The notes beneath the pieces are model-generated. The model saw only the letters and a list, made by a program, of their open reading frames with translations. It had not been told where the DNA came from and made no database searches. Made by a program: the position numbers and the translations under genes. Of a stretch of 64,000 nucleotides of DNA, positions 2,516 to 32,636 are shown in pieces (the first letter of the stretch is position 1; each line of letters begins with the position of its first letter). The DNA comes from a virus. Location: IMG/VR virus record IMGVR_UViG_3300023296_001674. One strand, given 5' to 3'.

Positions 2516-2553
2516 CAGTGGGGATAGTATAGAACCATCCCCACTGATGTCAA
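2516..2553 (-). promoter_or_regulatory. Sigma70-type promoter embedded in a palindrome (stem-loop promoter) for the HNH gene
   Basis: Minus strand: TTGACA (2553-2548), 16-nt spacer, TATACT (2531-2526). Arms cagtgggga (2516-2524) and tccccactg (2538-2546) flank the -10. Confidence 0.6.
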
Positions 2554-2556
2554 GGG

Positions 2557-3096
2557 TTATCGCATTTGTTTATGAATCAGTGAACCACCGTTTGGCTTAC
2601 GCTTACACTTAGGGTGATATCGATTTTCTGCGTTTGCAAGTTTACGCTGTCTTGGTATCACTGTGCCACAATCTTTGCATGTATATGTATGCTTTGCGAC
2701 TTTCTTGCGTATTTCGTTAAGAATGGTAGATGAACCACATCGTTTAACGTTCGTTATTCCAAGATCAAACATTATTACACGCCATTCTCTACCATGTGCA
2801 GCAATCTTTCTGCCATTGATATAAGAACCAAATCGTTCTTTGACGAGTATGTGTGCTGTTTCATGTAGCAGTGTGTTAATAAAATCATCCATTTCTTCTG
2901 GTTTCACTGCACCATGCAAATAATATTCGCTGGTTACTTCGACCAGTTTCTTGGAATACTTACAGCAACCAAAGCGATTCTTTGCACGCCAATTGATTGC
3001 GAATTTCCATTGTTCTAATGCATCAAAATCATCACCAGCCGCGTTTCTAACACGATCTAATAAATCGAATTTTTCAAGATATGTAAGAAGTTTCAT
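2557..3096 (-). CDS. SprT-like zinc metalloprotease-domain protein
   Basis: HETAH (HExxH) in LLHETAHILVKERFG, plus C-terminal CxxC...CKRK zinc-ribbon-like tail. Confidence 0.75.
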   Translation of the reverse strand: MKLLTYLEKFDLLDRVRNAAGDDFDALEQWKFAINWRAKNRFGCCKYSKKLVEVTSEYYLHGAVKPEEMDDFINTLLHETAHILVKERFGSYINGRKIAAHGREWRVIMFDLGITNVKRCGSSTILNEIRKKVAKHTYTCKDCGTVIPRQRKLANAENRYHPKCKRKPNGGSLIHKQMR

Positions 3097-3222
3097 GGTA
3101 GTTCCTTCCGTTTCAATAAGTGCATTAGATACTATAGTGTATATGATGTCAACACTTTATTTTCACTTGACACCATTGTGCAATCGTGTATAGTGATAAT
3201 CCAAACAACGAAAGGAACCGTT

Positions 3223-3414
3223 ATGTTATCAGAAGAAGAAAAACGTTTTATTGCATTTTGTGCCGAACTTGGCAAACTTTCCGTGAAACATGGCGTTACC
3301 ATTTATTCATGTGGTGGTGTTACTATTCACGACGTGCCATTATTAGAAGTGCTTTACATCGACGATGTATCAAGTGGTGATTTGGATTCAGTTATTGTAG
3401 AAAAGGAAATATAA
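3223..3414 (+). CDS. Hypothetical protein
   Basis: Track ORF trimmed to ATG 3223 after AAAGGAA. Promoter TTGACA 3165-3170 / TATAGT. Confidence 0.65.
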   Translation: MLSEEEKRFIAFCAELGKLSVKHGVTIYSCGGVTIHDVPLLEVLYIDDVSSGDLDSVIVEKEI

Positions 3415-3800
3415 TGCCAACACTAAACATATGGGAATTACCGGACAACACTGAAGTTGTTTATATCGACGTTGAAGGAAATCGTGTAACTGGTCGATTG
3501 GTAGAGAATTATGGTTCATATTTTGAATTCGTGCCAAAAGACGAAGATGCAAGTATGATGATTATGCATGACGTGGTTGATACCGTTGTTAAAGTCAGCG
3601 CAATAAAAACGGTTTCATTTGATTTTATCATGGATTCGTTTGTGTCTATACAGGCACCCGAAGGCACTGATCCTGATACATTGATTGAAAAAGCGATGAT
3701 TGCGTTTCATGATTTATTGGCTGCGAATCAAGCCGATGTCATATTTGATTCAACCATTCCAACATCTGAAAACACCGACCCATATGGAAACAAGTTATGA
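3414..3800 (+). CDS. Hypothetical protein
   Basis: ORF track; start overlaps the previous stop (TAATG). Confidence 0.7.
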   Translation: MPTLNIWELPDNTEVVYIDVEGNRVTGRLVENYGSYFEFVPKDEDASMMIMHDVVDTVVKVSAIKTVSFDFIMDSFVSIQAPEGTDPDTLIEKAMIAFHDLLAANQADVIFDSTIPTSENTDPYGNKL

Positions 3801-4150
3801 AAATATTTGAACCCATCGAACAATTATTTGATGAAATGGAAGAGACCGGCATTAATATTGCACGCGCCGCAATAAGTGTCGAACTGAAAGCATTGAATGA
3901 AATGTTTCCGCGTCATACGTTCATGTATGAAGGACGACAATGTTTGGATTATGTCAAGGTTTCGCCGCCGTTGCTTGGTGAAGAAAAACTTGTACCTTGG
4001 ACATTTTCTGGTCCTAATTATTGGGATGGCAGGGCGAGTCAATTCCCCGCAATACAAAACATGGTGGAACACTTACAGCGGATTAATGATATCCATACCG
4101 AGTTGACTGTAATTACCCGCCGCAATACTGGTGTAGAAGAAGTTTTCTAA
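3797..4150 (+). CDS. Hypothetical protein
   Basis: ORF track; ATGA overlap with the previous gene. Confidence 0.7.
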   Translation: MKIFEPIEQLFDEMEETGINIARAAISVELKALNEMFPRHTFMYEGRQCLDYVKVSPPLLGEEKLVPWTFSGPNYWDGRASQFPAIQNMVEHLQRINDIHTELTVITRRNTGVEEVF

Positions 4151-4159
4151 ACAAAGGGG

Positions 4160-4206
4160 TTGACATAGCCCCTTGACTTCCCTACTATACTGGTAGGGAG
4201 GGATGA
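4160..4206 (+). promoter_or_regulatory. AGGGAGGGATGA-class promoter, copy A
   Basis: -35 TTGACA 4160-4165, 17-nt spacer, -10 TACTAT 4183-4188, 6 nt, 12-mer AGGGAGGGATGA 4195-4206. Confidence 0.6.
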
Positions 4207-4325
4207 GGTTTATTTGGCTGCGAAAAATAACTGCACCAAAATGAAATAAAGTATTGACACCTTCTATCCAACCTGTATAATACCCACAGATTGAACGAAA
4301 CGACTTACCCCGAAGGAACGAACAA

Positions 4326-4664
4326 ATGGCTGATTCAAATTTTGTAGCGAAGCGAGTAGATGCCGGTGTCCCAATATGGACAATATTTGCTTACGGTAGG
4401 GACATTGGTTCTGCTACGGTTTTCGATTGGGAAGACGAAGGCCCAATGGCAACTGTTCGTTATGGGTATGATGATTTACCAGTTACGTTTTCGGGTTCTT
4501 CTATACGCGATGTATTGGCTAAGGTTGGCGCATTTTTGCGCACCATTGATTCTGATATGGAAGGCGAAGCCGCCGCCGAGTATTATAGCGAAGTTACAGG
4601 ACCAATGGAAGCGGCGGAGCGTTTAGCAGAACGCGGGTATCGGGATGATGACCCTATTTGGTAA
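4326..4664 (+). CDS. Hypothetical protein
   Basis: ORF track. Promoter TTGACA 4254-4259 / TATAAT 4276-4281, RBS GAAGGAA. Confidence 0.7.
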   Translation: MADSNFVAKRVDAGVPIWTIFAYGRDIGSATVFDWEDEGPMATVRYGYDDLPVTFSGSSIRDVLAKVGAFLRTIDSDMEGEAAAEYYSEVTGPMEAAERLAERGYRDDDPIW

Positions 4665-4727
4665 TAGGGGTTGACATTAGGAATTGGGTGGTCTATAACG
4701 CCCTGAACTTAACAAAGGAACAAACAA

Positions 4728-4952
4728 ATGTATAGCGTATATGATAGTTCGAGAGACCCGCGCATGGTAATACCCGAAGTTATGGCACGGACTGTATTCG
4801 ATAGTATTATCGGCGAGTGGAAAATTGCCAAGTTAAAGGGTGGCGAAACTGAACGACGGTTTAAAGTTAAAGAATCGGCGCAATTCGTATTCGATAAACT
4901 TGGCGGTTTTACTATTTGTTTTATTGAAGGCGACTTAATAATTAAGGGTTGA
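4728..4952 (+). CDS. Hypothetical protein
   Basis: ORF track. Promoter TTGACA 4671-4676 / TATAAC 4694-4699, RBS AAAGGAA. Confidence 0.7.
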   Translation: MYSVYDSSRDPRMVIPEVMARTVFDSIIGEWKIAKLKGGETERRFKVKESAQFVFDKLGGFTICFIEGDLIIKG

Positions 4953-5002
4953 CTCGCCCAATCCAATAGGCTATACAATAGGTCAACCAACGGAGAGAGA
5001 TT

Positions 5003-6511
5003 ATGCAAATACCAGAAATCACACTTTCAACGCAGCAAGTTAATATTCTTGATTGGGTTAAATCAGGAAAAGGTAATGTCATTATCGAAGCTGTAGCTGG
5101 CAGTGGTAAGACCTTCACATTGGTTGAAGCCGTTAAGTTGATGGTAGGCACTGTATTCCTTGGTGCTTATAACTCTGCTATGGGTTATGAGTTGAAGGAA
5201 AAAACCAAGGGCATGAAAAATGTTCGGGCTGGCACGTTCCATAGTGCAGGCTTTGGCGCACTTCAATATCGTTACGGAAAAATGCAAGTTGATGCTAACA
5301 AAGTGCGAGATATCGTTAATGGTATGGCGGAGGGCGACGACTTGTTTGCTGTATACGGCAACTTCATTAACAAGATGGTAGCACTTGCCAAGGATTCCGG
5401 CATTGGGTTCTTTAATAAAATTAACGACCCTATCATGTGGAATGAACTTGTTGATAAGCACGACCTTATGGATCAACTCGACGAACACTTAACAGTTGAT
5501 GTTGGTATTCAGTTATCAATGGACGTCTTAAAGGCATCTAACTCTAATCTTAAAGTTATTGATTTTAGTGATATGATTTATCTTGTATTGTTAAACAACC
5601 TCCGCCTTTTCCAACAAGATTGGGTTTTGGTTGACGAAGCCCAAGATACCAATAGCACGCGACGCGCACTGGCAAAGAAAATGTTAAAACCCGGTGGGCG
5701 TTTGATCGCGGTTGGTGATCCTCGCCAAGCAATCTTTGGCTTCACTGGTGCTGATTCCGATGCGCTGGACTTGATCTCCAAGGACTTCGGTACAACGACG
5801 CTTCCTTTGACTAGCACGTTCCGTTGCCCTAAATCGGTTGTTAAACACGCCCAACAATGGGTATCACACATTGAAGCGTATGATACTAATATCGAAGGCG
5901 AAGTTATCAACGCTAAATTCGACGACGTGTTCGGTGAAAAATCCGAATATAAGTTTACCGGTTCCGATGCAATCATTTGCCGCCTTAACGCGCCTATCGT
6001 TGAACTTGCATTCAAGTTGATTCGTAAGGGTGTTCCTTGCCGCATTGAAGGTAGAGATATCGGCACACAACTTGCAGCACTTGCAAACAAGTGGAAAGTA
6101 GTCCGCCTTGACGCCTTACGCAATCGCCTTGAGAAGTATAAGGAACGTGAAGTATCTAAGGCTATGGCAAAAGGGCAAGAACAGAAAGCCGGTAGCATTA
6201 CTGACCGCGTGGGCTGCCTTAATGTTCTTATCGAACGCGCCGAAGAAAAGAAACTTGACGTTGCTGGTTTGATTGTAATGATCAAGGGCATGTTTTCAGA
6301 CGCCCAAGATAAAACCACAAATAAGAACATTTTGGTTTTATCATCCGTTCATAAATCAAAAGGTAAAGAATGGCCTAGAGTGTTCTTGTTAGGACGCCAA
6401 GAAAATATGCCAAGTCCTTTTGCTAGACAGACATGGCAACTTTTACAAGAGGATAACCTTATCTACGTTGCTGTAACGAGGGCGATGGAAACGTTAATCG
6501 AAGTGGATTAA
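5003..6511 (+). CDS. UvrD/Rep-type superfamily 1 DNA helicase
   Basis: Walker A AVAGSGKT, VLVDEAQD, VGDPRQAIFGFTGA, SVHKSKGKEW, IYVAVTRA. Promoter TTGACT 4949-4954 / TATACA. Confidence 0.9.
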   Translation: MQIPEITLSTQQVNILDWVKSGKGNVIIEAVAGSGKTFTLVEAVKLMVGTVFLGAYNSAMGYELKEKTKGMKNVRAGTFHSAGFGALQYRYGKMQVDANKVRDIVNGMAEGDDLFAVYGNFINKMVALAKDSGIGFFNKINDPIMWNELVDKHDLMDQLDEHLTVDVGIQLSMDVLKASNSNLKVIDFSDMIYLVLLNNLRLFQQDWVLVDEAQDTNSTRRALAKKMLKPGGRLIAVGDPRQAIFGFTGADSDALDLISKDFGTTTLPLTSTFRCPKSVVKHAQQWVSHIEAYDTNIEGEVINAKFDDVFGEKSEYKFTGSDAIICRLNAPIVELAFKLIRKGVPCRIEGRDIGTQLAALANKWKVVRLDALRNRLEKYKEREVSKAMAKGQEQKAGSITDRVGCLNVLIERAEEKKLDVAGLIVMIKGMFSDAQDKTTNKNILVLSSVHKSKGKEWPRVFLLGRQENMPSPFARQTWQLLQEDNLIYVAVTRAMETLIEVD

Positions 6512-6536
6512 CTATGGTTTTTTGATAAATACTTAT

Positions 6537-7271
6537 ATGGTAAAACGCAAAACAACAGAACAGTTTATACAAGAATCGACTGCAATTCATGGTGATGTAT
6601 ATGATTATTCATTGACCAATTATATCAATAGACGTACCAAAGTAAAAATAATATGCACCGTTCATGGTATATATGAACAAACTGCGGGAAATCATTTATA
6701 TCAAAAACAAGGTTGCTCAAAATGTGCCGGTGATAAACAGGCATCGAGACAGCGAAAATCACTATCACAGTTTATTCAAGAGGCAACAATAGTTCACGAT
6801 TCTTTATATGATTATTCGTTGGTGGATTACAATCATACTGATATAAAAGTAAAAATAATATGCCCAACGCATGATATATTTAAGCAAACGCCGCATGATC
6901 ATTTACATGGAAAAGGTTGCCCTAAATGCGTTCATACTATATCAAAAGGTGAAACTAACTGGCTTAATCGCATTGGTTTACCAGACGATACACAACATAG
7001 ACAAGTGCGCTTGCCTATGAATAATAATAAAAATCGAAGGGTTGATGGTTATGATCCATTAACCAATACTGTTTATGAATTTCATGGTGATTACTGGCAT
7101 GGCAACCCCGCACGTTTTAATCTCGATGATATAAACCCAACCATTAAAAAACCATACAGACAACTCTATGAAGCCACCTTAACCAAGGAAGTGCTTATCA
7201 AAGATTCCGGTTATAATCTTGTAGTTATGTGGGAGCATGATTGGAAAGCTCATCCCTCCCTAACAGTATAA
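6537..7271 (+). CDS. Homing endonuclease, two Zn-ribbon repeats plus Vsr/PD-(D/E)XK-like nuclease domain
   Basis: MVKRKTTEQFIQESTAIHGDVYDYSL...KVKIICTVHG...CSKC repeated twice, then DGYDPLTNTVYEFHGDYWHGNP. Paralog of 11698-12435. Starts 26 nt after the helicase stop with no promoter of its own. Confidence 0.8.
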   Translation: MVKRKTTEQFIQESTAIHGDVYDYSLTNYINRRTKVKIICTVHGIYEQTAGNHLYQKQGCSKCAGDKQASRQRKSLSQFIQEATIVHDSLYDYSLVDYNHTDIKVKIICPTHDIFKQTPHDHLHGKGCPKCVHTISKGETNWLNRIGLPDDTQHRQVRLPMNNNKNRRVDGYDPLTNTVYEFHGDYWHGNPARFNLDDINPTIKKPYRQLYEATLTKEVLIKDSGYNLVVMWEHDWKAHPSLTV

Positions 7272-7296
7272 TATTAAATTACTCGTAAAAAAGCAA
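7250..7296 (-). promoter_or_regulatory. AGGGAGGGATGA-class promoter, copy B (overlaps the 3' end of the homing endonuclease ORF)
   Basis: Minus strand: TTGCTT (7296-7291), 17 nt, TATTAT (7273-7268), 6 nt, 12-mer at 7261-7250. Confidence 0.45.
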
Positions 7297-7404
7297 TGAT
7301 TATTTTTATAATATGACGTAAATTACTTGTTGACATTGGTTCAGTTAGTTTGTAATATCTTTTTATCAGAACATCATACATTCACAAATGAAAGATTGAA
7401 AATA

Positions 7405-7824
7405 ATGCCAACATATCGAAAAAGAATACTCATATCAGAATTCGCTGAACCAGAAATATTTTTTGAATATAAAGGTGTGAAAATATATCATACTTATACA
7501 GACAATGCTGAAACACTTTCATCATTGAATTTTGACCGTGATTGTAAAAGCAAGCGGTTGTTTACCACGAACAAAAAATGCGGCATGGTTCCCATGTTTG
7601 ATGTTTATTTTGAAAACGATCTTCGTGTATGGGACAAACAATCAAAAAATGAAACCCGTGGGGTGTTTAACATTCAAAACATTCCAAATCCTAAAGGGCA
7701 TCATATTACGACTCATGCTGGTATTTCAAGAGTTCTTATGGAAGCAATTGACACCGGTTGGATTAAAACTAATAAAACACCAGAGTGTATTCACGATTGT
7801 CATATACTCGCACATCCAAAATAA
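7405..7824 (+). CDS. Hypothetical protein
   Basis: Track ORF trimmed to ATG 7405, downstream of promoter TTGACA 7330-7335 / TAATAT 7353-7358. Confidence 0.65.
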   Translation: MPTYRKRILISEFAEPEIFFEYKGVKIYHTYTDNAETLSSLNFDRDCKSKRLFTTNKKCGMVPMFDVYFENDLRVWDKQSKNETRGVFNIQNIPNPKGHHITTHAGISRVLMEAIDTGWIKTNKTPECIHDCHILAHPK

Positions 7825-7913
7825 TCACATCAAGGGGAGAAGTAAAACCTTTTCCCCTTGACTAACTTTAATAAGTGTGCTATGAATATATCATAATTGA
7901 AAAGGATACGAAA

Positions 7914-8138
7914 ATGCATAACGCAGATGTTCTACATAATGCCTTACTTACCGCAACGATGATGATGCGTAAAGGTCGTGCGTTTAAGATTGTTAGATAT
8001 TCACCCAAACAAGAAACGGTTTATTATAGACCATTTTTCGCCAACGACCTGACTGACATACGCACTGACGAGTTGGATCACTTGTGCGACGATGATTCGA
8101 TTCAGTTATTCACCACAACGCAACTCGAAACACAATAA
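7914..8138 (+). CDS. Hypothetical protein
   Basis: Track ORF trimmed to ATG 7914 after AAAGGA. Promoter TTGACT 7857-7862. Confidence 0.65.
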   Translation: MHNADVLHNALLTATMMMRKGRAFKIVRYSPKQETVYYRPFFANDLTDIRTDELDHLCDDDSIQLFTTTQLETQ

Positions 8139-8147
8139 GGAAAACCG

Positions 8148-8345
8148 ATGCAAACTTATACCACCCCACGCTTAACGAACATAAGTGATACATTTCGCGC
8201 CGACGTTGCTGCGGGTGAATTAACTACATGGTGTGAAGAAAACAGTGTAGGTGCTTGGTTCATCCACGCCGTTGATCATGTGGAGTTTGAATTCCCCACA
8301 GATGCCAAACAATTTATGATGAAGTTTTGGGAGCTAGACTCCTAA
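8148..8345 (+). CDS. Hypothetical protein
   Basis: ORF track; RBS AAGGAAAA; followed by a terminator. Confidence 0.7.
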   Translation: MQTYTTPRLTNISDTFRADVAAGELTTWCEENSVGAWFIHAVDHVEFEFPTDAKQFMMKFWELDS

Positions 8346-8439
8346 AAATCCCCCCGCATGTTCCTACGCAAGTAATGAAGACACTCCATGCGGGGGTTCT
8401 TTTTGTTTTGGCGCACCCAAAAAAAGCTCATCCCTCCCT
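8344..8439 (-). ncRNA. Predicted ~96-nt RNA from copy C, ending at the shared terminator. Carries micro-ORF MSFFWVRQNKKNPRMECLHYLRRNMRGDF.
   Basis: Predicted +1 at A 8439. Hairpin 8396-8350 followed by a U-run on the minus strand. Confidence 0.35.
8350..8405. terminator. Bidirectional rho-independent terminator
   Basis: ccccccgcatg (8350-8360) pairs with catgcggggg (8388-8396). T-run after, A-run before. Confidence 0.75.
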
Positions 8440-8473
8440 ATCAGCATAATAGCAGGGTCAATAGATAAGTCAA
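8428..8473 (-). promoter_or_regulatory. AGGGAGGGATGA-class promoter, copy C
   Basis: Minus strand: TTGACT (8473-8468), 16 nt, TATTAT (8451-8446), 6 nt, 12-mer 8439-8428. Confidence 0.6.
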
Positions 8474-8550
8474 CCATTATTATTAAAAATAAACCATTGA
8501 CAACGGCTTTTGTATTTTATATAATATATAGATTGAAAAGGAGAATTGAA

Positions 8551-26674: not shown

Positions 26675-26712
26675 GCCGATTTTATCATCAAAATTTATTT
26701 TAATAATAGTGC

Positions 26713-26772
26713 ATTTAGGGGGTTGACTCATCTGATGCCTACCTTTATAACTACAAATAGAAACCAACCACA
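26713..26772 (+). repeat. 60-bp direct repeat (promoter plus UTR cassette), copy 2
   Basis: Identical to 26218-26277. TTGACT 26723-26728 / TATAAC 26746-26751. Confidence 0.9.
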
Positions 26773-26790
26773 ACCCCGAAGGAACTTATC

Positions 26791-27168
26791 ATGCAAAAAG
26801 TAATCGCCCACATCGAAGCAATCAACGCAGCAACCGGCAGCACTTGGGTTTTGAACGCGGATCATTGGGCTGGCTACGAAATAACCACACCCGAAGCGTT
26901 TGATCGTTATGTGCTTACCACAAGCATTTGGGATGCATACAAATATGGCTTGGGCTTTAAGCCACACGGCATGATGATGGAAGCAATGAGCATGGAACAG
27001 TTGGAACGCGAACTGGAAAGCGTTCGCGCTTCAATCGATGCGAACGCCGAACACGAAGCCGAACGGGAACGGGTGAACAATTTCACTTGGCAAGAACATC
27101 TTGCTTGCGCCAACATGCCAGCAATGGCAAACGACTCCCCCTTCGCAGTGTTGCAGGGGGTGCGATAA
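26791..27168 (+). CDS. Hypothetical protein
   Basis: ORF track; RBS GAAGGAA. Confidence 0.7.
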   Translation: MQKVIAHIEAINAATGSTWVLNADHWAGYEITTPEAFDRYVLTTSIWDAYKYGLGFKPHGMMMEAMSMEQLERELESVRASIDANAEHEAERERVNNFTWQEHLACANMPAMANDSPFAVLQGVR

Positions 27169-27182
27169 CCAACCGAAAGGGG

Positions 27183-27205
27183 CGGGGGATTTTCCCCCGT
27201 TTTTT
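27183..27205. terminator. Terminator hairpin
   Basis: cggggga-ttt-tcccccg, then T6. Confidence 0.7.
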
Positions 27206-27229
27206 CGCGCCAGCAATTCCAAAAAAAAG

Positions 27230-27277
27230 ACATCCCTCCCTATGGTGATATTAGCACTATTGCCCAAACAGAGTCAA
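27230..27277 (-). promoter_or_regulatory. AGGGAGGGATGA-class promoter, copy J (variant AGGGAGGGATGT)
   Basis: Minus strand: TTGACT (27277-27272), 18 nt, TAATAT (27253-27248), 6 nt, 12-mer 27241-27230. Confidence 0.55.
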
Positions 27278-27431
27278 CACTTATTTTCGCCCCCAAATTT
27301 CAGGCATCACCCAATCTTACCACGTTTTCGAATTACAAGTCAACCCCCTATTTTAATTCATTTAAGGGGTTGACTCTGTTTGGGTTGGGTAGTAATATCC
27401 CTTTATCAACTTAACAAAAGGAAACAAACAC

Positions 27432-27821
27432 ATGGATTCATTAAACGTTTTTGCGGATTCGAAAGTTGGCGATGGTGCAACGATCAATATGTATAGCGAT
27501 TCAAAGGCTTGCACGATTGTGGCGATTAGTGATAAGCGTATCACGGTTCAATATGACGATGTTAAATTGTTGAACGGTGCGAAATCTGGCGAACCCGATG
27601 CACTGGTTTTTGATGTAGGCGGATTTTCCGCACACTGTTCAGGTCGCCAGCGTTGGGAAACAACACCAAACCCCGAAGGCGGCAAGGTGACTTATTCCCT
27701 GCGCAAGTGGAACGACTACAAAAATGAACCAGTTATGCGGTGGGCACCAGTTGGCAGCAAACGCCACGAAGGTTCAGGCTTAACCGAAGGAAGGCATCAC
27801 CACTACGATTTCAATTTCTAG
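27432..27821 (+). CDS. Hypothetical protein
   Basis: ORF track. Promoter TTGACT 27370-27375 / TAATAT 27393-27398. Confidence 0.75.
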   Translation: MDSLNVFADSKVGDGATINMYSDSKACTIVAISDKRITVQYDDVKLLNGAKSGEPDALVFDVGGFSAHCSGRQRWETTPNPEGGKVTYSLRKWNDYKNEPVMRWAPVGSKRHEGSGLTEGRHHHYDFNF

Positions 27822-27836
27822 GCACAAGGAAAAAGG

Positions 27837-27870
27837 AGAGTCAAGAGAAATCTTGACTTTTCTTTTTTTA
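27837..27870. terminator. Bidirectional terminator carrying TTGACT in its arm
   Basis: agtcaaga-gaaa-tcttgact (27839-27858), then a T-rich run. Confidence 0.75.
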
Positions 27871-27893
27871 TTTTTTCCGCCGCCAAAAAAAGG

Positions 27894-27939
27894 TCATCCC
27901 TCCCTACCACCATAATACACTATTCGAACAACGAGTCAA
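27894..27939 (-). promoter_or_regulatory. AGGGAGGGATGA-class promoter, copy K
   Basis: Minus strand: TTGACT (27939-27934), 16 nt, TATTAT (27917-27912), 6 nt, 12-mer 27905-27894. Confidence 0.6.
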
Positions 27940-27947
27940 GACTATAA

Positions 27948-28074
27948 ACGGGGAACCACGAATGATTCCCCGTTTTCTTTTCTATAATGGCTTGGCTTGC
28001 CGTGTCGCCAGACGATTAGATCATGATGTCAAATCCTTCCGTTAATTTTTATCCGGTGTTTGAACTTACTCTCT
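27948..28074 (-). ncRNA. Candidate ~125-nt small RNA, with similarity to the homing-endonuclease leader
   Basis: Minus promoter AAGTGTTGACA (28107-28102), 16 nt, TATTAT (28085-28080). Terminator acggggaa/ttccccgt (27948-27973). Contains ACACCGGA...CGGAAGGAUUUGACAUCAUGAUCUAA, a two-codon ORF. Confidence 0.4.
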
Positions 28075-28180
28075 ACACCATAATACATTAAACAAAATAG
28101 ATGTCAACACTTATTTTAGGGGTTGACACTAACAATCGAAACCGCTATAACTGTATCAACTTAACCAAAAGGAACACCCA

Positions 28181-28390
28181 ATGTCAAACCAAGCATTTGT
28201 AGTTTATAACGGCAAAATCACAGTCAAGACTGAGATTTACGACGGCGGTTTATATTTCGCCGACACCGTGAAAGAAGTGACACAACGCTTGCGCGATTGC
28301 GAGACGTTGGTTGTTAAATCTGGCAGTGAACGCGACCTTAAGAAAATCGTCACCGTCGCCGACCTTTTCACAAACAATCCCCAAGGATAA
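28181..28390 (+). CDS. Hypothetical protein
   Basis: ORF track. Promoter TTGACA 28123-28128 / TATAAC 28146-28151. Confidence 0.7.
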   Translation: MSNQAFVVYNGKITVKTEIYDGGLYFADTVKEVTQRLRDCETLVVKSGSERDLKKIVTVADLFTNNPQG

Positions 28391-28394
28391 GACA

Positions 28395-28889
28395 ATGTCA
28401 AATCCCAAACACATAAACGATTTTTGCAAAGAACTTCGCGCACTTATGGAAAAGCACGGAATTGATTCATTAGGTGTCGAAATTGAGGGCGACACACACG
28501 GCATAAGTGAACAATTCGTTATCGATGATAATCAAAATAAAACACACGTGATCGACGGATTTTCAAGTTATTTGGATAAATCAGATTTGCGTGATTATAT
28601 CGAAGTAACCAGCGAATTATTGAAACGCGACGACGTTCAATTTGTTATCAACGATTTGCAAGATGATGGAGAAGAAAGTTCCGCTAAACTTTTTGAAGAC
28701 TATATCATCAAAGCGGAAAACAACGGCTTAAACATCGACCAAGCATTCCAAGGCACTATCGCACTAAGGGAAGCAATGAATATTATGGGAAGTTATTTCG
28801 ACGCCCTGAATACTAATAATCTTGTTTTTGTTAATCAAATCAATGCGATTGATTCAGCAATGCTACATTATAAAGATAGTTTAAAATAA
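28395..28889 (+). CDS. Hypothetical protein
   Basis: Track ORF 28311-28889 trimmed to ATG 28395 after AAGGA. Confidence 0.7.
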   Translation: MSNPKHINDFCKELRALMEKHGIDSLGVEIEGDTHGISEQFVIDDNQNKTHVIDGFSSYLDKSDLRDYIEVTSELLKRDDVQFVINDLQDDGEESSAKLFEDYIIKAENNGLNIDQAFQGTIALREAMNIMGSYFDALNTNNLVFVNQINAIDSAMLHYKDSLK

Positions 28890-28950
28890 CCGTTGACACT
28901 GGTACATGAAACCGATATAACTGTATCAACTTAACCAAAAGGATCATATC

Positions 28951-29310
28951 ATGGAAACAATATCGCGGTTTTATGCGCACGCTGGCAAAATTGCCATAAC
29001 GATTGGCGCGGGTGATACTACATATATCACCACAGACCAAGCCGAAATGATCGGCGCTAAATTATCTGAACTTGCCAGTCAAGTGAAAAACGGCAATCAT
29101 TCGACTACGGTTGAAGTTCCCGCAACTGAAGAACAAATGAAACGGATGCGTGAGGATGCGCCCGAAATTTATAAAATCATTCGTTGTTATCGCAATGGCA
29201 ATAGCCCCCGCACAATTGCACGTAGTGTAACGATTTTCGAAGCGCAAGAACATTGTAGCGATCCATCAACCTCAAACACCAAATATTTTGATGGATATGA
29301 GTTGAAATAG
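28951..29310 (+). CDS. Hypothetical protein
   Basis: ORF track. Promoter TTGACA 28893-28898 / TATAAC 28916-28921. Confidence 0.7.
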   Translation: METISRFYAHAGKIAITIGAGDTTYITTDQAEMIGAKLSELASQVKNGNHSTTVEVPATEEQMKRMREDAPEIYKIIRCYRNGNSPRTIARSVTIFEAQEHCSDPSTSNTKYFDGYELK

Positions 29311-29313
29311 GTC

Positions 29314-29353
29314 TTGACTCTGGTGTAGTTAGTTCGTATATTAACTACACCAG
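29314..29353 (+). promoter_or_regulatory. Stem-loop promoter (second copy of the 21515 cassette)
   Basis: TTGACT 29314-29319, TATATT 29337-29342. Arms 29320-29331 and 29342-29353. Confidence 0.7.
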
Positions 29354-29370
29354 AACAAAGGAACAAACAA

Positions 29371-29511
29371 ATGTCAAACGCTGAAATGTATCTCGATTGG
29401 GTTAACAATTTTTTAACTGTTGCACGGTTCGCCGAATATTACAATATCTCCGAGACCGAAGCTCTTGCCGTGATCGAAAAAGGTCGCATCGACCACCACG
29501 CAAATCTGTAA
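29371..29511 (+). CDS. Small hypothetical protein (46 aa)
   Basis: Not in the ORF track. AAAGGAA RBS. MSNAEMYLDWVNNFLTVARFAEYYNISETEALAVIEKGRIDHHANL. Confidence 0.6.
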   Translation: MSNAEMYLDWVNNFLTVARFAEYYNISETEALAVIEKGRIDHHANL

Positions 29512-29529
29512 ACAACGAAAGACAAACCC

Positions 29530-29829
29530 ATGCAAGTCACAACCGAACAACTCGAAACTTTCCTAACTAAAGCGCAAGCACATGTAAACGCTGATTACAG
29601 CACTAACTTTGAAGGCGATGCGCCAACACTTTCGATTGACCCAATGACCGAACGATCTAAGTACGCCAAAATCGTGAAAGATACCGGTCAACGTTCATTG
29701 TGGGGTTTCGTTGAACTATCAACCGGCAATCTGTTGACAGGCAGTTGGAAAGCACCACGCAAATCAAAATCAACATGCGGTCATATTGACGAGCCATTCT
29801 TACCACGGACTCGCTGGATGAGTGTATAA
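29530..29829 (+). CDS. Hypothetical protein
   Basis: ORF track. Confidence 0.7.
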   Translation: MQVTTEQLETFLTKAQAHVNADYSTNFEGDAPTLSIDPMTERSKYAKIVKDTGQRSLWGFVELSTGNLLTGSWKAPRKSKSTCGHIDEPFLPRTRWMSV

Positions 29830-29895
29830 TAAACCCTTGACTCTGATTCAGTTATTCTTTATAACTGAATAATCAGAACAACGAAAGAAAATCCA

Positions 29896-30072
29896 ATGGT
29901 AGGCAAACTTAATTTTCGTGTATTCCAAGATGGCAAACAACACATTGTTTCCGCACGTAGCATCGTGGTTCGTTTTGAACAAGGTGCATTCATATCAGCT
30001 AACATAAGACAAGATAGTGCCGAATATCTTGAAGCATGTGAAGCAATGGTTAAACATGATATGGGCGAATGA
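29896..30072 (+). CDS. Small hypothetical protein (58 aa)
   Basis: Not in the ORF track. Promoter TTGACT 29837-29842 / TATAAC 29860-29865. MVGKLNFRVFQDGKQHIV... Confidence 0.6.
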   Translation: MVGKLNFRVFQDGKQHIVSARSIVVRFEQGAFISANIRQDSAEYLEACEAMVKHDMGE

Positions 30073-30073
30073 T

Positions 30074-30253
30074 ATGACTGAAATTGCACAAGGCACTGAA
30101 GTCAAATTAAAATTCATTAACGGCGAAAATCGTTATGGCGCACTTATGGATAATCGAAAAAAACATTTGATTTATCGCCCCGTTGATGGTATCAATACCA
30201 TTGTTTTTCATAAAGACTTGAAAAGTGTTGCACCCGTATATATTCCATCTTAA
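30074..30253 (+). CDS. Small hypothetical protein (59 aa)
   Basis: Track ORF 30017-30253 trimmed to ATG 30074, directly after the previous stop. Confidence 0.6.
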   Translation: MTEIAQGTEVKLKFINGENRYGALMDNRKKHLIYRPVDGINTIVFHKDLKSVAPVYIPS

Positions 30254-30282
30254 TAAAAACAACAGCCGGAGTCACTTAGGTG

Positions 30283-30328
30283 TTGACTCCGGCATTTTTC
30301 CTGCTAATATACTATCAGGGAGGGATGA
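30283..30328 (+). promoter_or_regulatory. AGGGAGGGATGA-class promoter, copy L
   Basis: TTGACT 30283-30288 (inside the right arm of terminator hairpin ccggagtca/tgactccgg, 30266-30292), 16 nt, TAATAT 30305-30310, 6 nt, 12-mer 30317-30328. Confidence 0.6.
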
Positions 30329-30444
30329 GTAAAATTCGCCCCGAAAAAAACTTTCATTTTATTTCATTTAAGGGGTTGACTCTGATCGGGTTGGGTAGTA
30401 ATATCACTACATCAAAACAAACCAACAACCCAAGGAACAAAACC

Positions 30445-31029
30445 ATGGCAACCGATAAAAATGGCTTAACACTTTCAAACGCTTCTGATTCTGGTTATAA
30501 ATTTGTAACTACTTTGTTTGAAGGACCGCTGGCTGGAAAGTTCGTCGCCTTCGCGGATGTTAAAACCGCCGAATTGCAACGCCTGAACAAATCTCACGCG
30601 CACGGAATAAACGGTTTCTTTGGATTCAAAAACGTTGTTCCGTTGGGCGTTTTCGATGATGTGCGCGACGCCGCATACGTTGGACAAACATTCCACGCAG
30701 GGAACGCAGATGACCGCGACGACAACCTTGCCGAATTATACGCTGGCAATGAGTCAGTTATCCCTAAATCATTGACCGATTGGGATAATCCCGCCGATGT
30801 TACTTCAATGAAAAAAGCCGCAACCCGCGCAAAAACCCGACGCATGGGTAAAACATTCGATGCAAAAAAAGCCGAGACCGCAATCGATAAGTTTGCCAAC
30901 AATTTCAAATCATACAAAATCGGTAACATGGATGTCCGCGTAATCTTGGAACGCATGAAAGAACTGTTTGATAACGGAACAAGCTTAACCCTTTCCGCCG
31001 AAACCGTTTGCTCCGATTACCAGCGATAA
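30445..31029 (+). CDS. Hypothetical protein, possible AP2-like DNA-binding domain
   Basis: Track ORF trimmed to ATG 30445 after AAGGAA. SGYKFV...GKFVAF...LGVFDDVRDAAYV resembles the AP2/HNH-associated fold, recalled by eye only. Confidence 0.6.
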   Translation: MATDKNGLTLSNASDSGYKFVTTLFEGPLAGKFVAFADVKTAELQRLNKSHAHGINGFFGFKNVVPLGVFDDVRDAAYVGQTFHAGNADDRDDNLAELYAGNESVIPKSLTDWDNPADVTSMKKAATRAKTRRMGKTFDAKKAETAIDKFANNFKSYKIGNMDVRVILERMKELFDNGTSLTLSAETVCSDYQR

Positions 31030-31032
31030 CCC

Positions 31033-31073
31033 TTGACTCTGGTGTAATTGATAAGTATAATTGATTACACCAG
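31033..31073 (+). promoter_or_regulatory. Stem-loop promoter
   Basis: TTGACT 31033-31038, 17 nt, TATAAT 31056-31061. Arms ctggtgtaat 31039-31048 and attacaccag 31064-31073. Confidence 0.7.
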
Positions 31074-31090
31074 AACAAAAGGAATTTAAC

Positions 31091-31363
31091 ATGGATAAAC
31101 GCGATGTGATTGTAATTTGCGTTGGCAGTGCCGCCGATGATATACGCGCACTTAATCACGCAACAAACTCCGCAGTTCTAGTCGTTGAAGATAAACCCGC
31201 AATTCACGAAATGGCATTGATGGATGATATATTTTTAACCGATGAAGCAAAAGATATGTTTGTGCTTGAATTAATCGAAGACGCGTTGCCAAAGAATTTT
31301 CTAAGTGAACCAAAACCCCGAAAGGCTTGGAAAAACGAATTCGAAAATCTAGGTCGTAAATAA
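31091..31363 (+). CDS. Hypothetical protein
   Basis: Track ORF trimmed to ATG 31091 after AAAGGAA. Confidence 0.7.
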   Translation: MDKRDVIVICVGSAADDIRALNHATNSAVLVVEDKPAIHEMALMDDIFLTDEAKDMFVLELIEDALPKNFLSEPKPRKAWKNEFENLGRK

Positions 31364-31386
31364 ATCAAAACCAGAGTCACTTAGGT

Positions 31387-31432
31387 GTTGACTCTGGATT
31401 TCTTTCTGCTATTATACTGTCAGGGAGGGATG
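31387..31432 (+). promoter_or_regulatory. AGGGAGGGATGA-class promoter, copy M
   Basis: TTGACT 31387-31392 (in the right arm of hairpin ccagagtca/tgactctgg, 31371-31396), 16 nt, TATTAT 31409-31414, 6 nt, 12-mer 31421-31432. Confidence 0.6.
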
Positions 31433-31455
31433 ACTTTATTTTATTCCCGCACTTA

Positions 31456-31557
31456 TAATAAAAGCCAGACTCGCGTCTGACCTTTATCCTTTCTTTCTAT
31501 CCGGTTTATGTCCGCCACGTCGGGTCGGAACTATGTATCGCCGAACGCGTCGGCTAG
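31456..31557 (-). ncRNA. Candidate ~100-nt RNA convergent with the copy M transcript
   Basis: Minus promoter TTGACA (31591-31586), 16 nt, TATTAT (31569-31564). Terminator GGUCAGAC-GCGA-GUCUGGCU (31482-31463) plus a U-rich run. Confidence 0.35.
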
Positions 31558-31672
31558 ATTTATATAATACCACAACAACCAAACATGTCAACAAAAAAGA
31601 TTCAATAATAACACTTGACTCCGTTTGGGTTGGGTGTATACTATCCATAGATTGAAACAAAGGATTAATCAA

Positions 31673-32593
31673 ATGGCAAAAGCAACCCGCACCAAAATCG
31701 ATCATGAGCAACAAATCACTAACGCTATTGTCGCCCACGTTGAAGGGTATATCGCCGCCGAGGCTACAGGCGAAGAGATCGCACGTTGGGAAAGCCCCTT
31801 CGGAAAATTCTTCCGTGAAGGCCATTTTTGCGCCGCAACCGATAACCAGTATAAAGGCTGGACTAACAATTTTTTCCTTACACTTATGGCGCACGCAAGC
31901 GGATTCAATTCCGATGCATGGGGAACATTCAAGCAATGGAAAAGCATGGGAACGGATGAAACACCCGTATCTGTTAAGCATGGTCAAAAAGGTTCCGCTT
32001 GGATTGCTTTTCCATATATCAACAAAGATAAAGTAACCGGCGACGACACCGTAACCGGATTCGGATATCGCGCCGTATTCAATGCCGATCAAATCGAAGG
32101 ATATACGCCCGAGGTTGTTGAACTACCAGAGTCGCAGGTTGTGCAACATGCCAAAGCTGAAACATTCTTGAAAAATCTGGACGTAACATTCCAGCATATC
32201 GGAAACCGCGCTTTCTATAGCCCTGCTAGTGATGCAATCAGCATGCCCCCAGAAGGCGCGTTTAAGGCGACTGAATACAGTACCGCAACCGAAGGCTACT
32301 ATGGCACCAAGTTTCATGAATACGCCCACGCAACCCTGCACGCTAGCCGGTGCAATCGCGAACAAGGCGCGGATAAAGCTTCATACGCTTTCGAAGAGTT
32401 GGTCGCCGAATTGACCTCGACTATCCTATGTTCGCGCTTTGGTATATCCGCACAACCACGCGAAGACCACGCTAAGTATATACATTCATGGTTGAAAGCA
32501 CTGAAAAGCGACAAGACCATGATTATGAAGGCAATGAAGAAAGCAAGCCAAGCAATCGCTTGGATGGATAAAAAGCAACCAACATCAAAATAA
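31673..32593 (+). CDS. ardC: ArdC-like protein: N-terminal ssDNA-binding (DUF1738-like) domain plus C-terminal zincin metalloprotease
   Basis: Trimmed to ATG 31673. YKGWTNNFFL...WGTFKQW, HEYAHATLH (HExxH), YAFEELVAELTSTILCSRFGI, AKYIHSWLKALKSD. Promoter TTGACT 31615-31620 / TATACT 31637-31642. Confidence 0.8.
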   Translation: MAKATRTKIDHEQQITNAIVAHVEGYIAAEATGEEIARWESPFGKFFREGHFCAATDNQYKGWTNNFFLTLMAHASGFNSDAWGTFKQWKSMGTDETPVSVKHGQKGSAWIAFPYINKDKVTGDDTVTGFGYRAVFNADQIEGYTPEVVELPESQVVQHAKAETFLKNLDVTFQHIGNRAFYSPASDAISMPPEGAFKATEYSTATEGYYGTKFHEYAHATLHASRCNREQGADKASYAFEELVAELTSTILCSRFGISAQPREDHAKYIHSWLKALKSDKTMIMKAMKKASQAIAWMDKKQPTSK

Positions 32594-32597
32594 AAGG

Positions 32598-32636
32598 TTG
32601 ACAGTAAGGATATGATATCGTATTATATCCTTACTG
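32598..32636 (+). promoter_or_regulatory. Stem-loop promoter (12-bp perfect arms)
   Basis: TTGACA 32598-32603, 17 nt, TATTAT 32621-32626. Arms cagtaaggatat 32602-32613 and atatccttactg 32625-32636. Confidence 0.7.

What the first reader, a model, noticed from the sequence alone, without database searches (positions are those of the whole stretch)
2516..32636. One promoter per gene, with the -10 box held in the loop of a palindrome whose arms vary but stay complementary
Between 0.35 and 32.7 kb I count at least 45 near-consensus TTGAC(A/T)-17-TAxxxx promoters. That is essentially one in front of every small gene.

-35 start positions include 354, 3165, 4254, 4671, 4949, 7330, 7857, 8962, 9279, 9883, 10505, 10818, 12559, 13466, 14093, 14713, 16282, 16952, 17516, 18794, 19047, 19838, 21515, 21794, 22285, 22889, 23666, 24214, 24595, 24823, 25497, 26228, 26723, 27370, 28123, 28893, 29314, 29837, 30376, 31033, 31615 and 32598.

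In many of them the spacer pairs with the first transcribed bases across the -10:
- ctggtgtagtta / taactacaccag (21521 and 29320; 12 bp)
- cagtaaggatat / atatccttactg (32602; 12 bp)
- ctggtgtaat / attacaccag (31039; 10 bp)
- ggtttgatt / aatcaaacc (18802; 9 bp)
- cagtgggga / tccccactg (2516, minus strand; 9 bp)
- cagttat / ataactg plus ctgatt / aatcag (29843)

The arm sequences differ while complementarity is kept. This argues for selection on structure, not on a shared protein-binding site.

Whole cassettes are duplicated verbatim (21515 = 29314; 26218 = 26713; 14093-14147 nearly equals 14713-14770).

This resembles the 'promoter-early stem-loop' cassettes I recall being described for hyperplastic regions of T4-type phages, where they are proposed to mediate gene shuffling. 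If that holds, this window is an unusually dense example.
Basis: partly seen in the sequence, partly recalled or inferred. Interest (0 to 1): 0.55.

Follow-up and report, generated by a model that had tools for sequence, protein, structure and literature searches.

The report
Promoter-hairpin gene cassettes, huge phage
This stretch of an uncultured ~570-kb phage packs a strong host-type promoter in front of nearly every small gene, and about a fifth of these promoters sit inside a conserved hairpin, the same design as the 'PeSL' cassettes of T4-like phages, here seen outside the known T4-like group.

Summary
Sigma-70-type promoters are hugely enriched (31 strict matches against 2.3 expected). 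About 45 of 70 called genes between 0.4 and 32.6 kb have one 22-52 nt before the start codon.

However, only about 11 of 61 window promoters have one, and 35 of 61 have no hairpin at all.

The window matches a ~570-kb metagenomic phage contig. Five relatives (helicase 66-78% identical) share the layout. Across 176 promoters, strong helices spanning the -10 occur in 13.6% against 1.3% in mismatched controls.

One orthologous promoter keeps a 12-pair helix through 5 compensatory double changes. Internal mismatches are mostly G·T. Hairpins cluster at tight gene junctions (odds ratio 11). None is followed by a T-run.

Identical 60-nt cassettes precede unrelated genes, and gene order is scrambled between relatives.

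This matches PeSL cassettes, which I checked directly in phage phi1. I file it as a new member of a known kind. How the hairpin works remains inferred.

A separate family of 13 promoter-plus-AGGGAGGGAT units is unexplained.

The parts
354..34203 (+). Block of small, mostly unannotatable genes, nearly all on the + strand. It holds about 45 gene promoters (TTGACW, 16-18 nt, TAnnnn). The block continues at least 5 kb upstream of the window.
   Evidence: Seven further promoters lie in the first 5 kb of L021.
2515..2553 (-). Promoter of the HNH-endonuclease gene (1853-2503, minus strand). The helix is TCAGTGGGGATGGT / ACTATCCCCACTGA, and most of the -10 (TATACT) lies in the loop.
   Evidence: -25.1 kcal/mol, z -5.5. 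Orthologues in L027 and L024 keep the helix with different arms.
13466..13502 (+). Promoter with a short 7-bp helix, TTAAGTG / CACTTAA, across the -10.
   Evidence: The arms of the orthologues are 13 bp (L024 15771) and 9 bp (L027 17662).
14091..14153 (+). Cassette copy A. It is 94% identical to 14711-14773. The helix is weak and imperfect, and the -10 is TATAAA.
14711..14773 (+). Cassette copy B of the previous part. It sits in front of an unrelated gene.
17516..17555 (+). Promoter (TCGACA -35) with the helix TGGTATAGTTA / TAACTGTATCA, which includes two G·U pairs. A canonical terminator lies directly upstream.
18794..18842 (+). Promoter with the helix TGGTTTGATTGTT / AATAATCAAACCA and an 11-nt loop holding the -10. 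The predicted outer pairs reach the GGAG ribosome-binding site.
   Evidence: -14.9 kcal/mol, z -3.3.
21515..21555 (+). Promoter with a 13-bp perfect palindrome, TCTGGTGTAGTTA / TAACTACACCAGA. The cassette recurs at 29305.
   Evidence: -22.2 kcal/mol, z -5.4.
22285..22320 (+). Promoter with the helix TGGTGTAGTTATA / TATAACTACATCA (one G·T). The -10 (TATAAC) lies in the 3' arm.
26218..26277 (+). Cassette without a strong hairpin. It is identical over 60 nt to 26713-26772.
26713..26772 (+). Second copy of the previous cassette, in front of an unrelated gene.
29314..29354 (+). Copy of the 21515 promoter-hairpin cassette. The downstream gene is unrelated to the gene after 21515.
29837..29877 (+). 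Promoter with a two-part helix (CTGATT + CAGTTAT, paired with ATAACTG + AATCAG) and a 3-nt bulge.
   Evidence: -13.7 kcal/mol, z -4.0.
31033..31074 (+). Promoter with the helix TCTGGTGTAAT(TGAT) / (ATTG)ATTACACCAGA. The -10 is in the loop.
   Evidence: -18.1 kcal/mol, z -5.5.
32598..32636 (+). Promoter with a 12-bp perfect palindrome, CAGTAAGGATAT / ATATCCTTACTG, extendable to 16 pairs. The -10 then lies in the 3' arm.
   Evidence: -19.8 kcal/mol, z -6.5.
24214..24242 (+). Typical hairpin-free promoter that carries the conserved spacer motif TGGTTCAGTTA.
   Evidence: (z -0.3).

Best explanation
WHAT IT IS. The window is the early, hyperplastic region of an uncultured ~570-kb phage. Each small gene or gene pair is a self-contained module. 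From upstream to downstream a module holds: a TAA-rich stretch just upstream of the -35 box, the -35 box TTGACW, a spacer of about 17 nt, the -10 box, an A at the predicted start 7 nt later, an A/C-rich leader, an AAAGGA ribosome-binding site and the ATG. These roughly 60-nt junction cassettes are a repeated family.

THE HAIRPIN. In about one cassette in five, the spacer is complementary to the first transcribed bases. The -10 box then lies in the loop or the 3' arm of a 7-16-bp hairpin.

HOW IT LIKELY WORKS (inferred). The cassette's own transcript starts inside the 3' arm, so it cannot form the hairpin. Only RNA that enters from the upstream gene can. I therefore read the hairpin as an RNA element that acts on read-through transcripts at tight gene junctions. 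It could attenuate or pause the polymerase, or protect or insulate the RNA ends. It is not a canonical terminator.

A SECOND ROLE. The repeated cassettes also give short stretches of homology between which single genes can be swapped, as proposed for PeSL cassettes of T4-like phages.

SHOWN VERSUS INFERRED. Shown: the enrichment, the covariation, the strand bias, the link to tight junctions, cassette reuse and gene-order scrambling. Inferred: early timing, the start site, and the molecular effect of the hairpin.
For: SOURCE AND CONTEXT
- The window is identical to a 570,549-bp metagenomic contig.
- The genes are mostly without annotation. Those that can be named are helicase, Macro, SprT-like, DSPc phosphatase, ArdC and an ADP-ribosyltransferase.
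- rIIA/rIIB-like genes lie just upstream in relatives.

ENRICHMENT
- Promoters.
- Hairpins against mismatched controls: 13.6% against 1.3%. At least 9 bp perfect: 13 against about 0.6 expected. Folding z below -2 in 24%.

COVARIATION
- Alignment A1: 5 of 12 pairs changed on both sides, 94% of cells paired against 31-50% when slid.
- The DSPc promoter keeps a hairpin in three phages, with one G-C to A-T swap.

SENSE-STRAND BIAS
- Internal mismatches are 9 G·T, 1 A·C and 4 other. In controls they are 10 G·T/T·G, 12 A·C/C·A and 24 other.
- Sense z is -1.22 against antisense -0.92, p = 0.014. Among structured promoters it is -3.63 against -2.92, p = 0.006.

TIGHT JUNCTIONS
- In 36 of 42 hairpin promoters a co-directional ORF ends within 15 nt of the -35. 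The figure is 47 of 133 for the others (odds ratio 11, p = 1e-8).

CASSETTE REUSE
- Identical 60-nt cassettes have flanks that fall to about 25% identity, and the downstream proteins are unrelated.
- In relative L024 the same 'gggtaggggta' cassette precedes three genes (17265, 17730, 18226). The window orthologue of one of them has a different cassette.

SHUFFLING
- Only 26 reciprocal best hits link about 95 and about 60 genes.
- The left half is colinear. The right half is permuted: ranks 22, 19, 16, 15, 18, 17, 20, 21.

DIRECT COMPARISON WITH PeSLs
- PeSL definition.
- phi1 cassettes such as TTGACA..GGGAGTAgTAAGATACTCCC, with a CATCGAAACGAAA leader.
Against: - Most promoters (35 of 61 in the window) have no hairpin, so it is not essential to the cassette.
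- None of the 27 best hairpins is followed by a T-run; all are followed by an A-rich leader. The terminator activity shown for phi1 PeSLs therefore cannot be assumed here.
- Predicted accessibility of the ribosome-binding site in read-through RNA is the same with and without hairpins (0.45 against 0.46). A simple translational gate is not general.
- All G·T mismatches have the G in the 5' arm. This could reflect a clash between two conserved motifs (spacer TGGTG, leader CATCA) and not tolerance of RNA wobble pairs.
- The spacer motif TGGTKYASTTA is conserved as sequence.
- No near relatives with insertions or deletions were available, so breakpoints are known only at gene level.
- With one promoter per gene, whole-gene changes fall between cassettes trivially.
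- Early timing and start sites are not measured.
Confidence: 0.6

Rival explanations
1. The palindromes are operators. A dimeric phage or host regulator binds inverted half-sites flanking the -10 and switches the early promoters off or on.
For: - The spacer motif TGGTKYASTTA occurs 20 times against 0.35 expected, at a fixed place in the spacer, and is conserved in all relatives.
- In 21515 and 29314 it occurs as two inverted copies around the -10.
- About half of the hairpin arms are built from this motif or from TGGTGCAC.
- A relative encodes a protein with a sigma-70 region 4 domain and two receiver-domain proteins just after the block.
Against: - The other half of the arms are unrelated to each other: CAGTGGGGAT, GATAGGGATG, AGTTGGGT, CAGTAAGGATAT, GTTTGATTAAGTG, AGCTTCTGG, GGTAGGG.
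- Orthologous arms change by compensatory pairs.
- Loop length varies from 3 to 17 nt and the register shifts.
- Mismatches are G·T and not random.
- Most promoters with the motif have only one copy.
Confidence: 0.12
2. The selected function is at the DNA level. The inverted repeats extrude as cruciforms or hairpins and serve as preferred crossover or nicking sites that mobilise gene cassettes. Any RNA hairpin is incidental.
For: [quoted passage not shown]
- Identical cassettes precede unrelated genes.
- Gene order is permuted.
- L024 carries a tandem duplication of one cassette.
- The AT-rich -10 at the centre would ease extrusion (established knowledge of cruciform kinetics).
- Hairpins lie at precise gene junctions.
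Against: - A cruciform needs both strands to pair. G·T on one strand is A·C on the other, and the bias of 9 to 1 favours one strand.
- The sense strand folds better than the antisense strand.
- Loops of 10-17 nt extrude poorly.
- Cassettes without any hairpin are duplicated just as exactly (26218 and 26713).
Confidence: 0.15
3. The complementarity is a mutational by-product. Imperfect inverted repeats are 'corrected' by template switching during replication. This gives apparent compensatory changes without any selected function.
For: - Quasi-palindrome correction is an established mutational process.
- Arm length differs among orthologues (7, 9 and 13 bp).
- Hairpins are gained and lost between orthologous promoters. 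L035 1408 has one, while window 24823 lacks one.
Against: - The helix persists at the same promoter in three phages whose flanking protein is only 42% identical.
- Hairpins are strongly tied to tight co-directional junctions.
- G·T pairs are retained and not corrected to perfect pairs.
Confidence: 0.08
4. The hairpins are ordinary intrinsic terminators of the upstream genes that happen to overlap the next promoter.
For: - PeSL stem-loops of phi1 reduced reporter expression as much as a strong terminator.
- The hairpins lie right after upstream stop codons.
Against: - None of the 27 best hairpins is followed by a T-run. The next bases are A-rich.
- True terminators with T-runs exist elsewhere in the window and look different, for example 10782-10811.
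Confidence: 0.04

Closest known systems
PeSL (promoter-early stem-loop) cassettes of T4-like phages (RB49/phi1, T4/PST, KVP40/nt-1; PMC2839356, PMC4122927)
   Same: - Near-consensus sigma-70 promoter, with the upstream gene's stop codon just before the -35 and the ribosome-binding site and ATG at the 3' end.
- A stem-loop in variable register, including the class that overlaps the -10.
- A repeated family of roughly 60-100 bp in front of unrelated small genes of a hyperplastic region.
- Gene content and gene order differ between relatives.
   Different: - The genome is a ~570-kb metagenomic phage not shown to be T4-type. The nearest rIIB is 47% identical, in PA5oct-like jumbo phages.
- The phi1 class with the stem wholly inside the spacer (G-run, loop, C-run) is absent.
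- Only about a fifth of the cassettes carry a stem.
- No T-rich tail follows the stems, so terminator activity is doubtful.
- Many -10 boxes end in C or A.
- A conserved spacer motif is present.
- Mini-circles and crossover points are untested.
T4 genes e, soc and I-TevI: hairpins with an internal promoter (own knowledge of the T4 literature, not read here)
   Same: A promoter lies inside a hairpin. Long upstream transcripts therefore fold, while transcripts from the internal promoter lack the 5' arm.
   Different: In T4 the hairpin hides the ribosome-binding site. Here the site is generally outside the stem, and its predicted accessibility does not differ between cassettes with and without hairpins. 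A few cassettes may work that way (HNH promoter trio, 31033, 18794).
Intercistronic REP-type palindromes that stabilise upstream mRNA (own knowledge)
   Same: Stable stem-loops without T-runs, placed right after a stop codon between co-transcribed genes.
   Different: REP elements are a sequence family, not promoter-embedded, and are bound by host proteins. Here the arms are diverse and overlap a promoter.
Phage N4 virion-RNA-polymerase hairpin promoters (own knowledge)
   Same: The promoter is associated with a DNA hairpin near position -12.
   Different: N4 promoters have a 5-7-bp stem, a 3-nt loop and conserved bases, and lack sigma-70 boxes. Here the -35 and -10 consensus boxes are intact, and stems and loops vary widely.

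Membership tests
PeSL cassettes | Near-consensus sigma-70-type early promoter | tested here: met
   The -35 is TTGACW, the spacer is 16-18 nt and the -10 is TAnnnn. Strict matches number 31 against 2.3 expected. About a seventh of the -10 boxes end in C instead of T. Early timing is inferred only.
PeSL cassettes | AT-rich region, with the upstream stop codon, just before the -35 | tested here: met
   The 25 nt upstream are 64% AT against 60% background, which is a weak excess. 'aaaTTA/TAA' is conserved 4-9 nt before the -35. An upstream ORF ends within 15 nt of the -35 in 83 of 175 promoters.
PeSL cassettes | Stem-loop associated with the promoter, in variable position | tested here: inconclusive
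   Present well above chance, but in only about 18-24% of cassettes. The classes seen are stems spanning the -10, stems upstream of the -35, and stems that include the -35. The spacer-only class is absent.
PeSL cassettes | Repeated conserved motif in intergenic spaces of a hyperplastic region rich in orphan genes | tested here: met
   Repeat families of 41-63 nt with up to 13 copies. Almost no Pfam hits among about 70 genes. Only 26 shared genes with the nearest relative.
PeSL cassettes | The stem-loop terminates or attenuates upstream transcription | not testable with these tools
   This needs reporter or RNA-end data. In sequence, none of 27 hairpins has a T-run.
PeSL cassettes | Recombination between cassettes produces insertions, deletions, replacements and mini-circles | tested here: inconclusive
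   Consistent evidence: identical cassettes before unrelated genes, permuted gene order and a duplicated cassette in L024. No close relatives with insertions or deletions were available, and mini-circles need PCR.
PeSL cassettes | Host genome is a T4-like myovirus | tested here: inconclusive
   Only rIIA/rIIB-like genes and a weak T4 Y07C domain were seen. The nearest rIIB is in PA5oct-like jumbo phages. No T4 core genes lie in the window. A 570-kb genome lies outside the 160-250 kb range the PeSL papers give for T4-likes.
Intrinsic (Rho-independent) terminators | GC-rich stem followed directly by a T-run | tested here: not met
   The tails are A-rich in all 27 top hairpins.
Palindromic repressor operator | The same half-site sequence at all regulated promoters, at fixed spacing | tested here: not met
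   At least nine unrelated arm sequences, loops of 3-17 nt, and compensatory changes in orthologues. A one-copy spacer motif does exist.
N4-type hairpin promoters | A 5-7-bp stem and 3-nt loop with conserved bases, and no sigma-70 boxes | tested here: not met
   Consensus -35 and -10 boxes are present, and stems and loops are variable.

The most novel reading that the evidence does not exclude
The hairpin may be a device that tells two RNA populations apart. Each gene would be made from an unstructured transcript from its own promoter and from a hairpin-tagged read-through transcript with a different fate (pausing, processing, stability or translation). This would let hundreds of shuffled single-gene modules work in any order.

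Linked to this, the 13 promoter-plus-AGGGAGGGAT units (28 in the lineage) may be a new family of abundant small phage RNAs of about 65-95 nt. They share an invariant 10-nt 5' end that resembles a Shine-Dalgarno sequence and could act on ribosomes or on RNA-binding host factors.
Probability: 0.2. Interest if true: 0.7.

Novelty: new member of a known kind. Interest (0 to 1): 0.45.

Why it matters
PeSL cassettes have been described only in T4-like phages. Finding the same design in a roughly 570-kb uncultured phage lineage suggests that 'portable promoter plus hairpin' junctions are a general way for large phages to build and reshuffle long arrays of accessory genes.

Three results here are, as far as I found, not reported in the PeSL papers: compensatory changes in orthologous hairpins, the G·T strand bias, and the link to tight gene junctions. 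Together they turn a descriptive motif into a testable claim about RNA-level function.

The cassettes are also compact, strong and context-independent expression units that could be tried in synthetic biology.

Tried and rejected
SEARCHES THAT FOUND NOTHING USEFUL
- Megablast of 12 kb against 50,697 phage records: no match. Protein-level hits are at most 51% identical.
- Exact scans of IMG/VR for the cassette and for the AGGGAGGGATG motif: 0 hits each.
- ArdC relatives in IMG/VR: at most 40% identical, not useful.
- Rfam on the whole window: no family. tRNA scan: none.
- Scan of bacterial genomes for promoter plus AGGGAGGGAT: 59 single hits. This is roughly what I estimate by hand for chance (about 50), and they are mostly Firmicutes. 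It gives no host clue.

COMPARISONS THAT COULD NOT BE MADE
- Near-identical strains (L024/L025/L026, L028/L029, L021/L022) differ only by a few substitutions. They have no insertions or deletions, so breakpoints cannot be mapped.
- One relative (P0124) had no retrievable DNA, and its gene context was unrelated.

IDEAS TESTED AND DROPPED
- The hairpin hides the ribosome-binding site in read-through RNA: no difference from hairpin-free promoters.
- The small units encode a peptide: the ATG is replaced by ATA, ATC or ATT in five copies, and the ORFs run from 2 to at least 37 codons with no common sequence.
- The similarity between phi1 and window leaders (CATCGAAAC...) shows homology: it looks like a generic start-site and A-rich-leader preference, so I do not claim homology.

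Full report
WHAT THE WINDOW IS

The first 16.5 kb of the window are identical to a 570,549-bp metagenomic contig (ENA ERZ27315719 k141_202852). Four contigs of 0.2-1 Mb carry the same genes. There is no near match among 50,697 phage records or in IMG/VR.

From 0.4 to 34 kb almost all genes are small, lie on the + strand and have no Pfam family. The exceptions are a UvrD-type helicase, Macro, SprT-like, HNH, DUF723 (three copies), an ArdC-like protein and an ADP-ribosyltransferase. In relatives, rIIA/rIIB-like genes lie just upstream. GC content falls from about 40% to about 34% at 34 kb.

This looks like the early, host-takeover region of a huge phage. That it is expressed early is an inference from the promoter type.

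CHECK OF THE PROMOTERS

TTGACW-N17-TANNNT occurs 31 times against 2.3 expected. A looser pattern gives 74 against 14 in 1-34.5 kb.

Of 70 called genes, about 45 have a promoter ending 22-52 nt before the ATG. Those without one overlap the previous gene or follow it by less than 35 nt.

An A lies 7 nt after the -10 in 80% of the 45 window promoters tabulated, which is the likely start site. Many -10 boxes are TATAAC, TATAAA or TATACA, usually preceded by TGn.

CHECK OF THE PALINDROMES

Every example exists. RNA folding gives -13.7 to -25.1 kcal/mol and z-scores of -3.2 to -6.5. Two ordinary promoters fold like shuffles.

But among 61 window promoters only about 11 have a helix across the -10, and 35 have no hairpin at all. 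In 32598 and 22285 the -10 lies in the 3' arm and not in the loop.

RELATIVES AND STATISTICS

Helicase homologues of 66-78% identity led to five related loci. A sixth came through ArdC. All have the same layout of one promoter per gene.

Over 176 promoters:
- Perfect palindromes of at least 9 bp across the -10 occur in 13. They occur in 0.34% of pairs in which the spacer of one promoter is matched with the downstream region of another.
- With mismatches allowed, a helix score of at least 10 occurs in 13.6% against 1.3%.
- Folding z is below -2 in 24%, with a mean z of -1.2.

STRUCTURE OR SEQUENCE?

The promoter of the HNH gene is orthologous in the window (2553, minus strand), L027 and L024. 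The protein is only 42% identical. The arms are CAGTGGGGAT, GATAGGGATG and AGTTGGGT.

On alignment A1, a 12-pair helix has 5 pairs changed on both sides. 94% of cells pair, against 31-50% when the partner is slid by 1-3 columns.

The DSPc promoter also keeps a hairpin in three phages. Other orthologous promoters (17-kDa antigen, Macro, g109) lack one in every phage. The hairpin is therefore a property of particular junctions.

There is also a sequence motif. TGGTKYASTTA occurs 20 times against 0.35 expected, at a fixed place in the spacer and in all relatives. About half of the arms are built on it.

WHICH MOLECULE FOLDS?

Helix mismatches were penalised equally whatever their type. Of 14, 9 are G·T and 1 is A·C. 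In mismatched controls the counts are 10 G·T/T·G and 12 A·C/C·A out of 46. The sense strand folds better than the antisense strand relative to its own shuffles (z -1.22 against -0.92, p = 0.014). This favours a sense-strand hairpin, most simply RNA.

One caveat applies. All the G·T pairs have the G in the 5' arm. This could also come from a clash between the spacer motif and the conserved leader.

WHERE THE HAIRPINS SIT

In 36 of 42 hairpin promoters a co-directional ORF ends within 15 nt of the -35. The figure is 47 of 133 for the rest (odds ratio 11, p = 1e-8). The predicted start lies inside the 3' arm, so only RNA arriving from the upstream gene can fold.

None of the 27 best hairpins is followed by a T-run, so they are not canonical terminators. 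Predicted exposure of the ribosome-binding site in read-through RNA is the same with and without hairpins (0.45 against 0.46). A translational gate is therefore not general. It may hold for the HNH trio, 31033 and 18794.

CASSETTES AS REPEATED, PORTABLE UNITS

Repeat families of 41-63 nt cover the region from just before the -35 to the ribosome-binding site. Three pairs are 94-100% identical over about 60 nt. Identity drops to about 25% on both sides, and the downstream proteins are unrelated.

In L024 one cassette type precedes three genes. The window orthologue of one of them (75% identical protein) has a different cassette.

Against the L024+L035 phage there are only 26 reciprocal best hits among about 95 and about 60 genes. 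The left half is colinear. The right half is permuted.

Near-identical strains have no insertions or deletions, so crossover points cannot be placed.

COMPARISON WITH WHAT IS KNOWN

The PeSL papers define a composite of three parts: a sigma-70-like promoter, an AT-rich upstream region and a stem-loop. The stem-loop most often lies between -35 and -10 or overlaps the -10. The cassettes are repeated in hyperplastic regions, act as terminators in a reporter, and recombine to give insertions, deletions and mini-circles.

I extracted real PeSLs from phi1. Both the spacer-internal class (GGGGATC acc GATCCCC) and the -10-spanning class (GGGAGTA gtaaga TACTCCC) are there, followed by a CATCGAAACGAAA leader.

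The window shares the layout and the second class. It lacks the first class, lacks T-rich tails, and has stems in only a fifth of its cassettes.

PeSLs are reported only in T4-likes. This phage is not shown to be one. I therefore file the finding as a new member of a known kind, with the membership features listed separately.

VERDICT

The mechanism of the hairpin is still inferred. My best reading is an RNA element acting on read-through transcripts at tight junctions, together with cassette-mediated shuffling (confidence 0.6 for the whole picture, lower for the RNA role alone).

Noticed in passing
AGGGAGGGAT(G) motif on the + strand at 4195, 18235, 25416, 26663, 30317, 31422. On the - strand at 7261, 8439, 19621, 20519, 26165, 27241, 27905.: Thirteen small units (28 in the lineage) consist of a strong sigma-70 promoter, exactly 6 nt, then an invariant AGGGAGGGAT at the predicted start, often followed by a T-run.

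The next base varies (G, A, C or T) and the ORFs differ, so they do not encode a peptide.

Six of the seven minus-strand units end in an intrinsic terminator 50-90 nt further on, which would give RNAs of about 65-95 nt. Three orthologous units share a central GAACAAAACGTGAACAAA.

There is no Rfam hit, and their function is unknown.
   Followed up: partly
window 7337-31312 (20 sites, e.g. 14100, 16289, 21801, 24221); also loci L021-L035: The spacer motif TGGTKYASTTA occurs 20 times against 0.35 expected. It mostly starts 2 nt after the -35 and is conserved across the related phages. It also occurs inverted just upstream of some -35 boxes (4228). It may be a protein-binding site.
   Followed up: partly
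e.g. 4671, 16282, 17516, 18794, 21794, 22285, 22889, 26228, 28123, 28893, 29837: In 24 of 176 promoters the -10 box is TATAAC, with C at the normally invariant last position. Others are TATAAA or TATACA. They are usually preceded by TGn. In several, the TAAC pairs with GTTA of the spacer.
   Followed up: partly
8473/8497, 18187/18201, 19823/19838, 20554/20569, 26201/26228, 27343/27370, 28107/28123, 31591/31615: Back-to-back divergent promoter pairs have -35 boxes about 9-21 bp apart. Some form a palindrome of their own, for example AGATAAGTCAACC...GGTTGACTTATCT at about 18175-18210. The minus-strand partner often drives an AGGGAGGGAT unit.
   Followed up: no
window 1-239 (-), 6537-7271 (+), 11698-12435 (-); also 1853-2503 (-) and 39533-40207 (-): There are three DUF723 paralogues (50-54% identical to one in L024), an HNH gene and a GIY-YIG/I-TevI-like gene. 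These look like free-standing homing endonucleases. The copy after the helicase has no promoter of its own and is absent at that position in relatives.
   Followed up: partly
window 25526-25577; L024 about 19695-19740; L028 about 17230-17275: An unusually long leader, TTGTTCCAAGGCAnTAnCGCCTAACACAGATTGAAAGGGAAC, is conserved before one orthologous gene in three phages. It may be a regulatory 5' untranslated region.
   Followed up: no
L024 9156-9261 and 9248-9353: A tandem duplication (97% identical, offset 92 bp) covers a whole promoter cassette and the start of its gene. It is also present in the near-identical strain L025.
   Followed up: no
L035 11559-14006: In the relative, just after ArdC, lie a protein with a sigma-70 region 4 domain and two receiver-domain proteins. 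tblastn found no counterpart of the sigma-70 region 4 protein or the two receiver-domain proteins in the window. They are candidate regulators of the TTGAC promoters.
   Followed up: no
window 31673-32593 and 33324-33755: ArdC-like (ArdcN + MPTase-PolyVal) and ART-PolyVal domains are encoded as separate small genes at the end of the promoter-dense block.
   Followed up: no
window about 34000: GC content drops from about 40% to about 34% where the one-directional block of small genes ends. Beyond this point genes lie on both strands. They include a Dam-type methylase, a GluRS-like catalytic domain, a carbamoyltransferase, a ligase and tail-fibre-like proteins.
   Followed up: no
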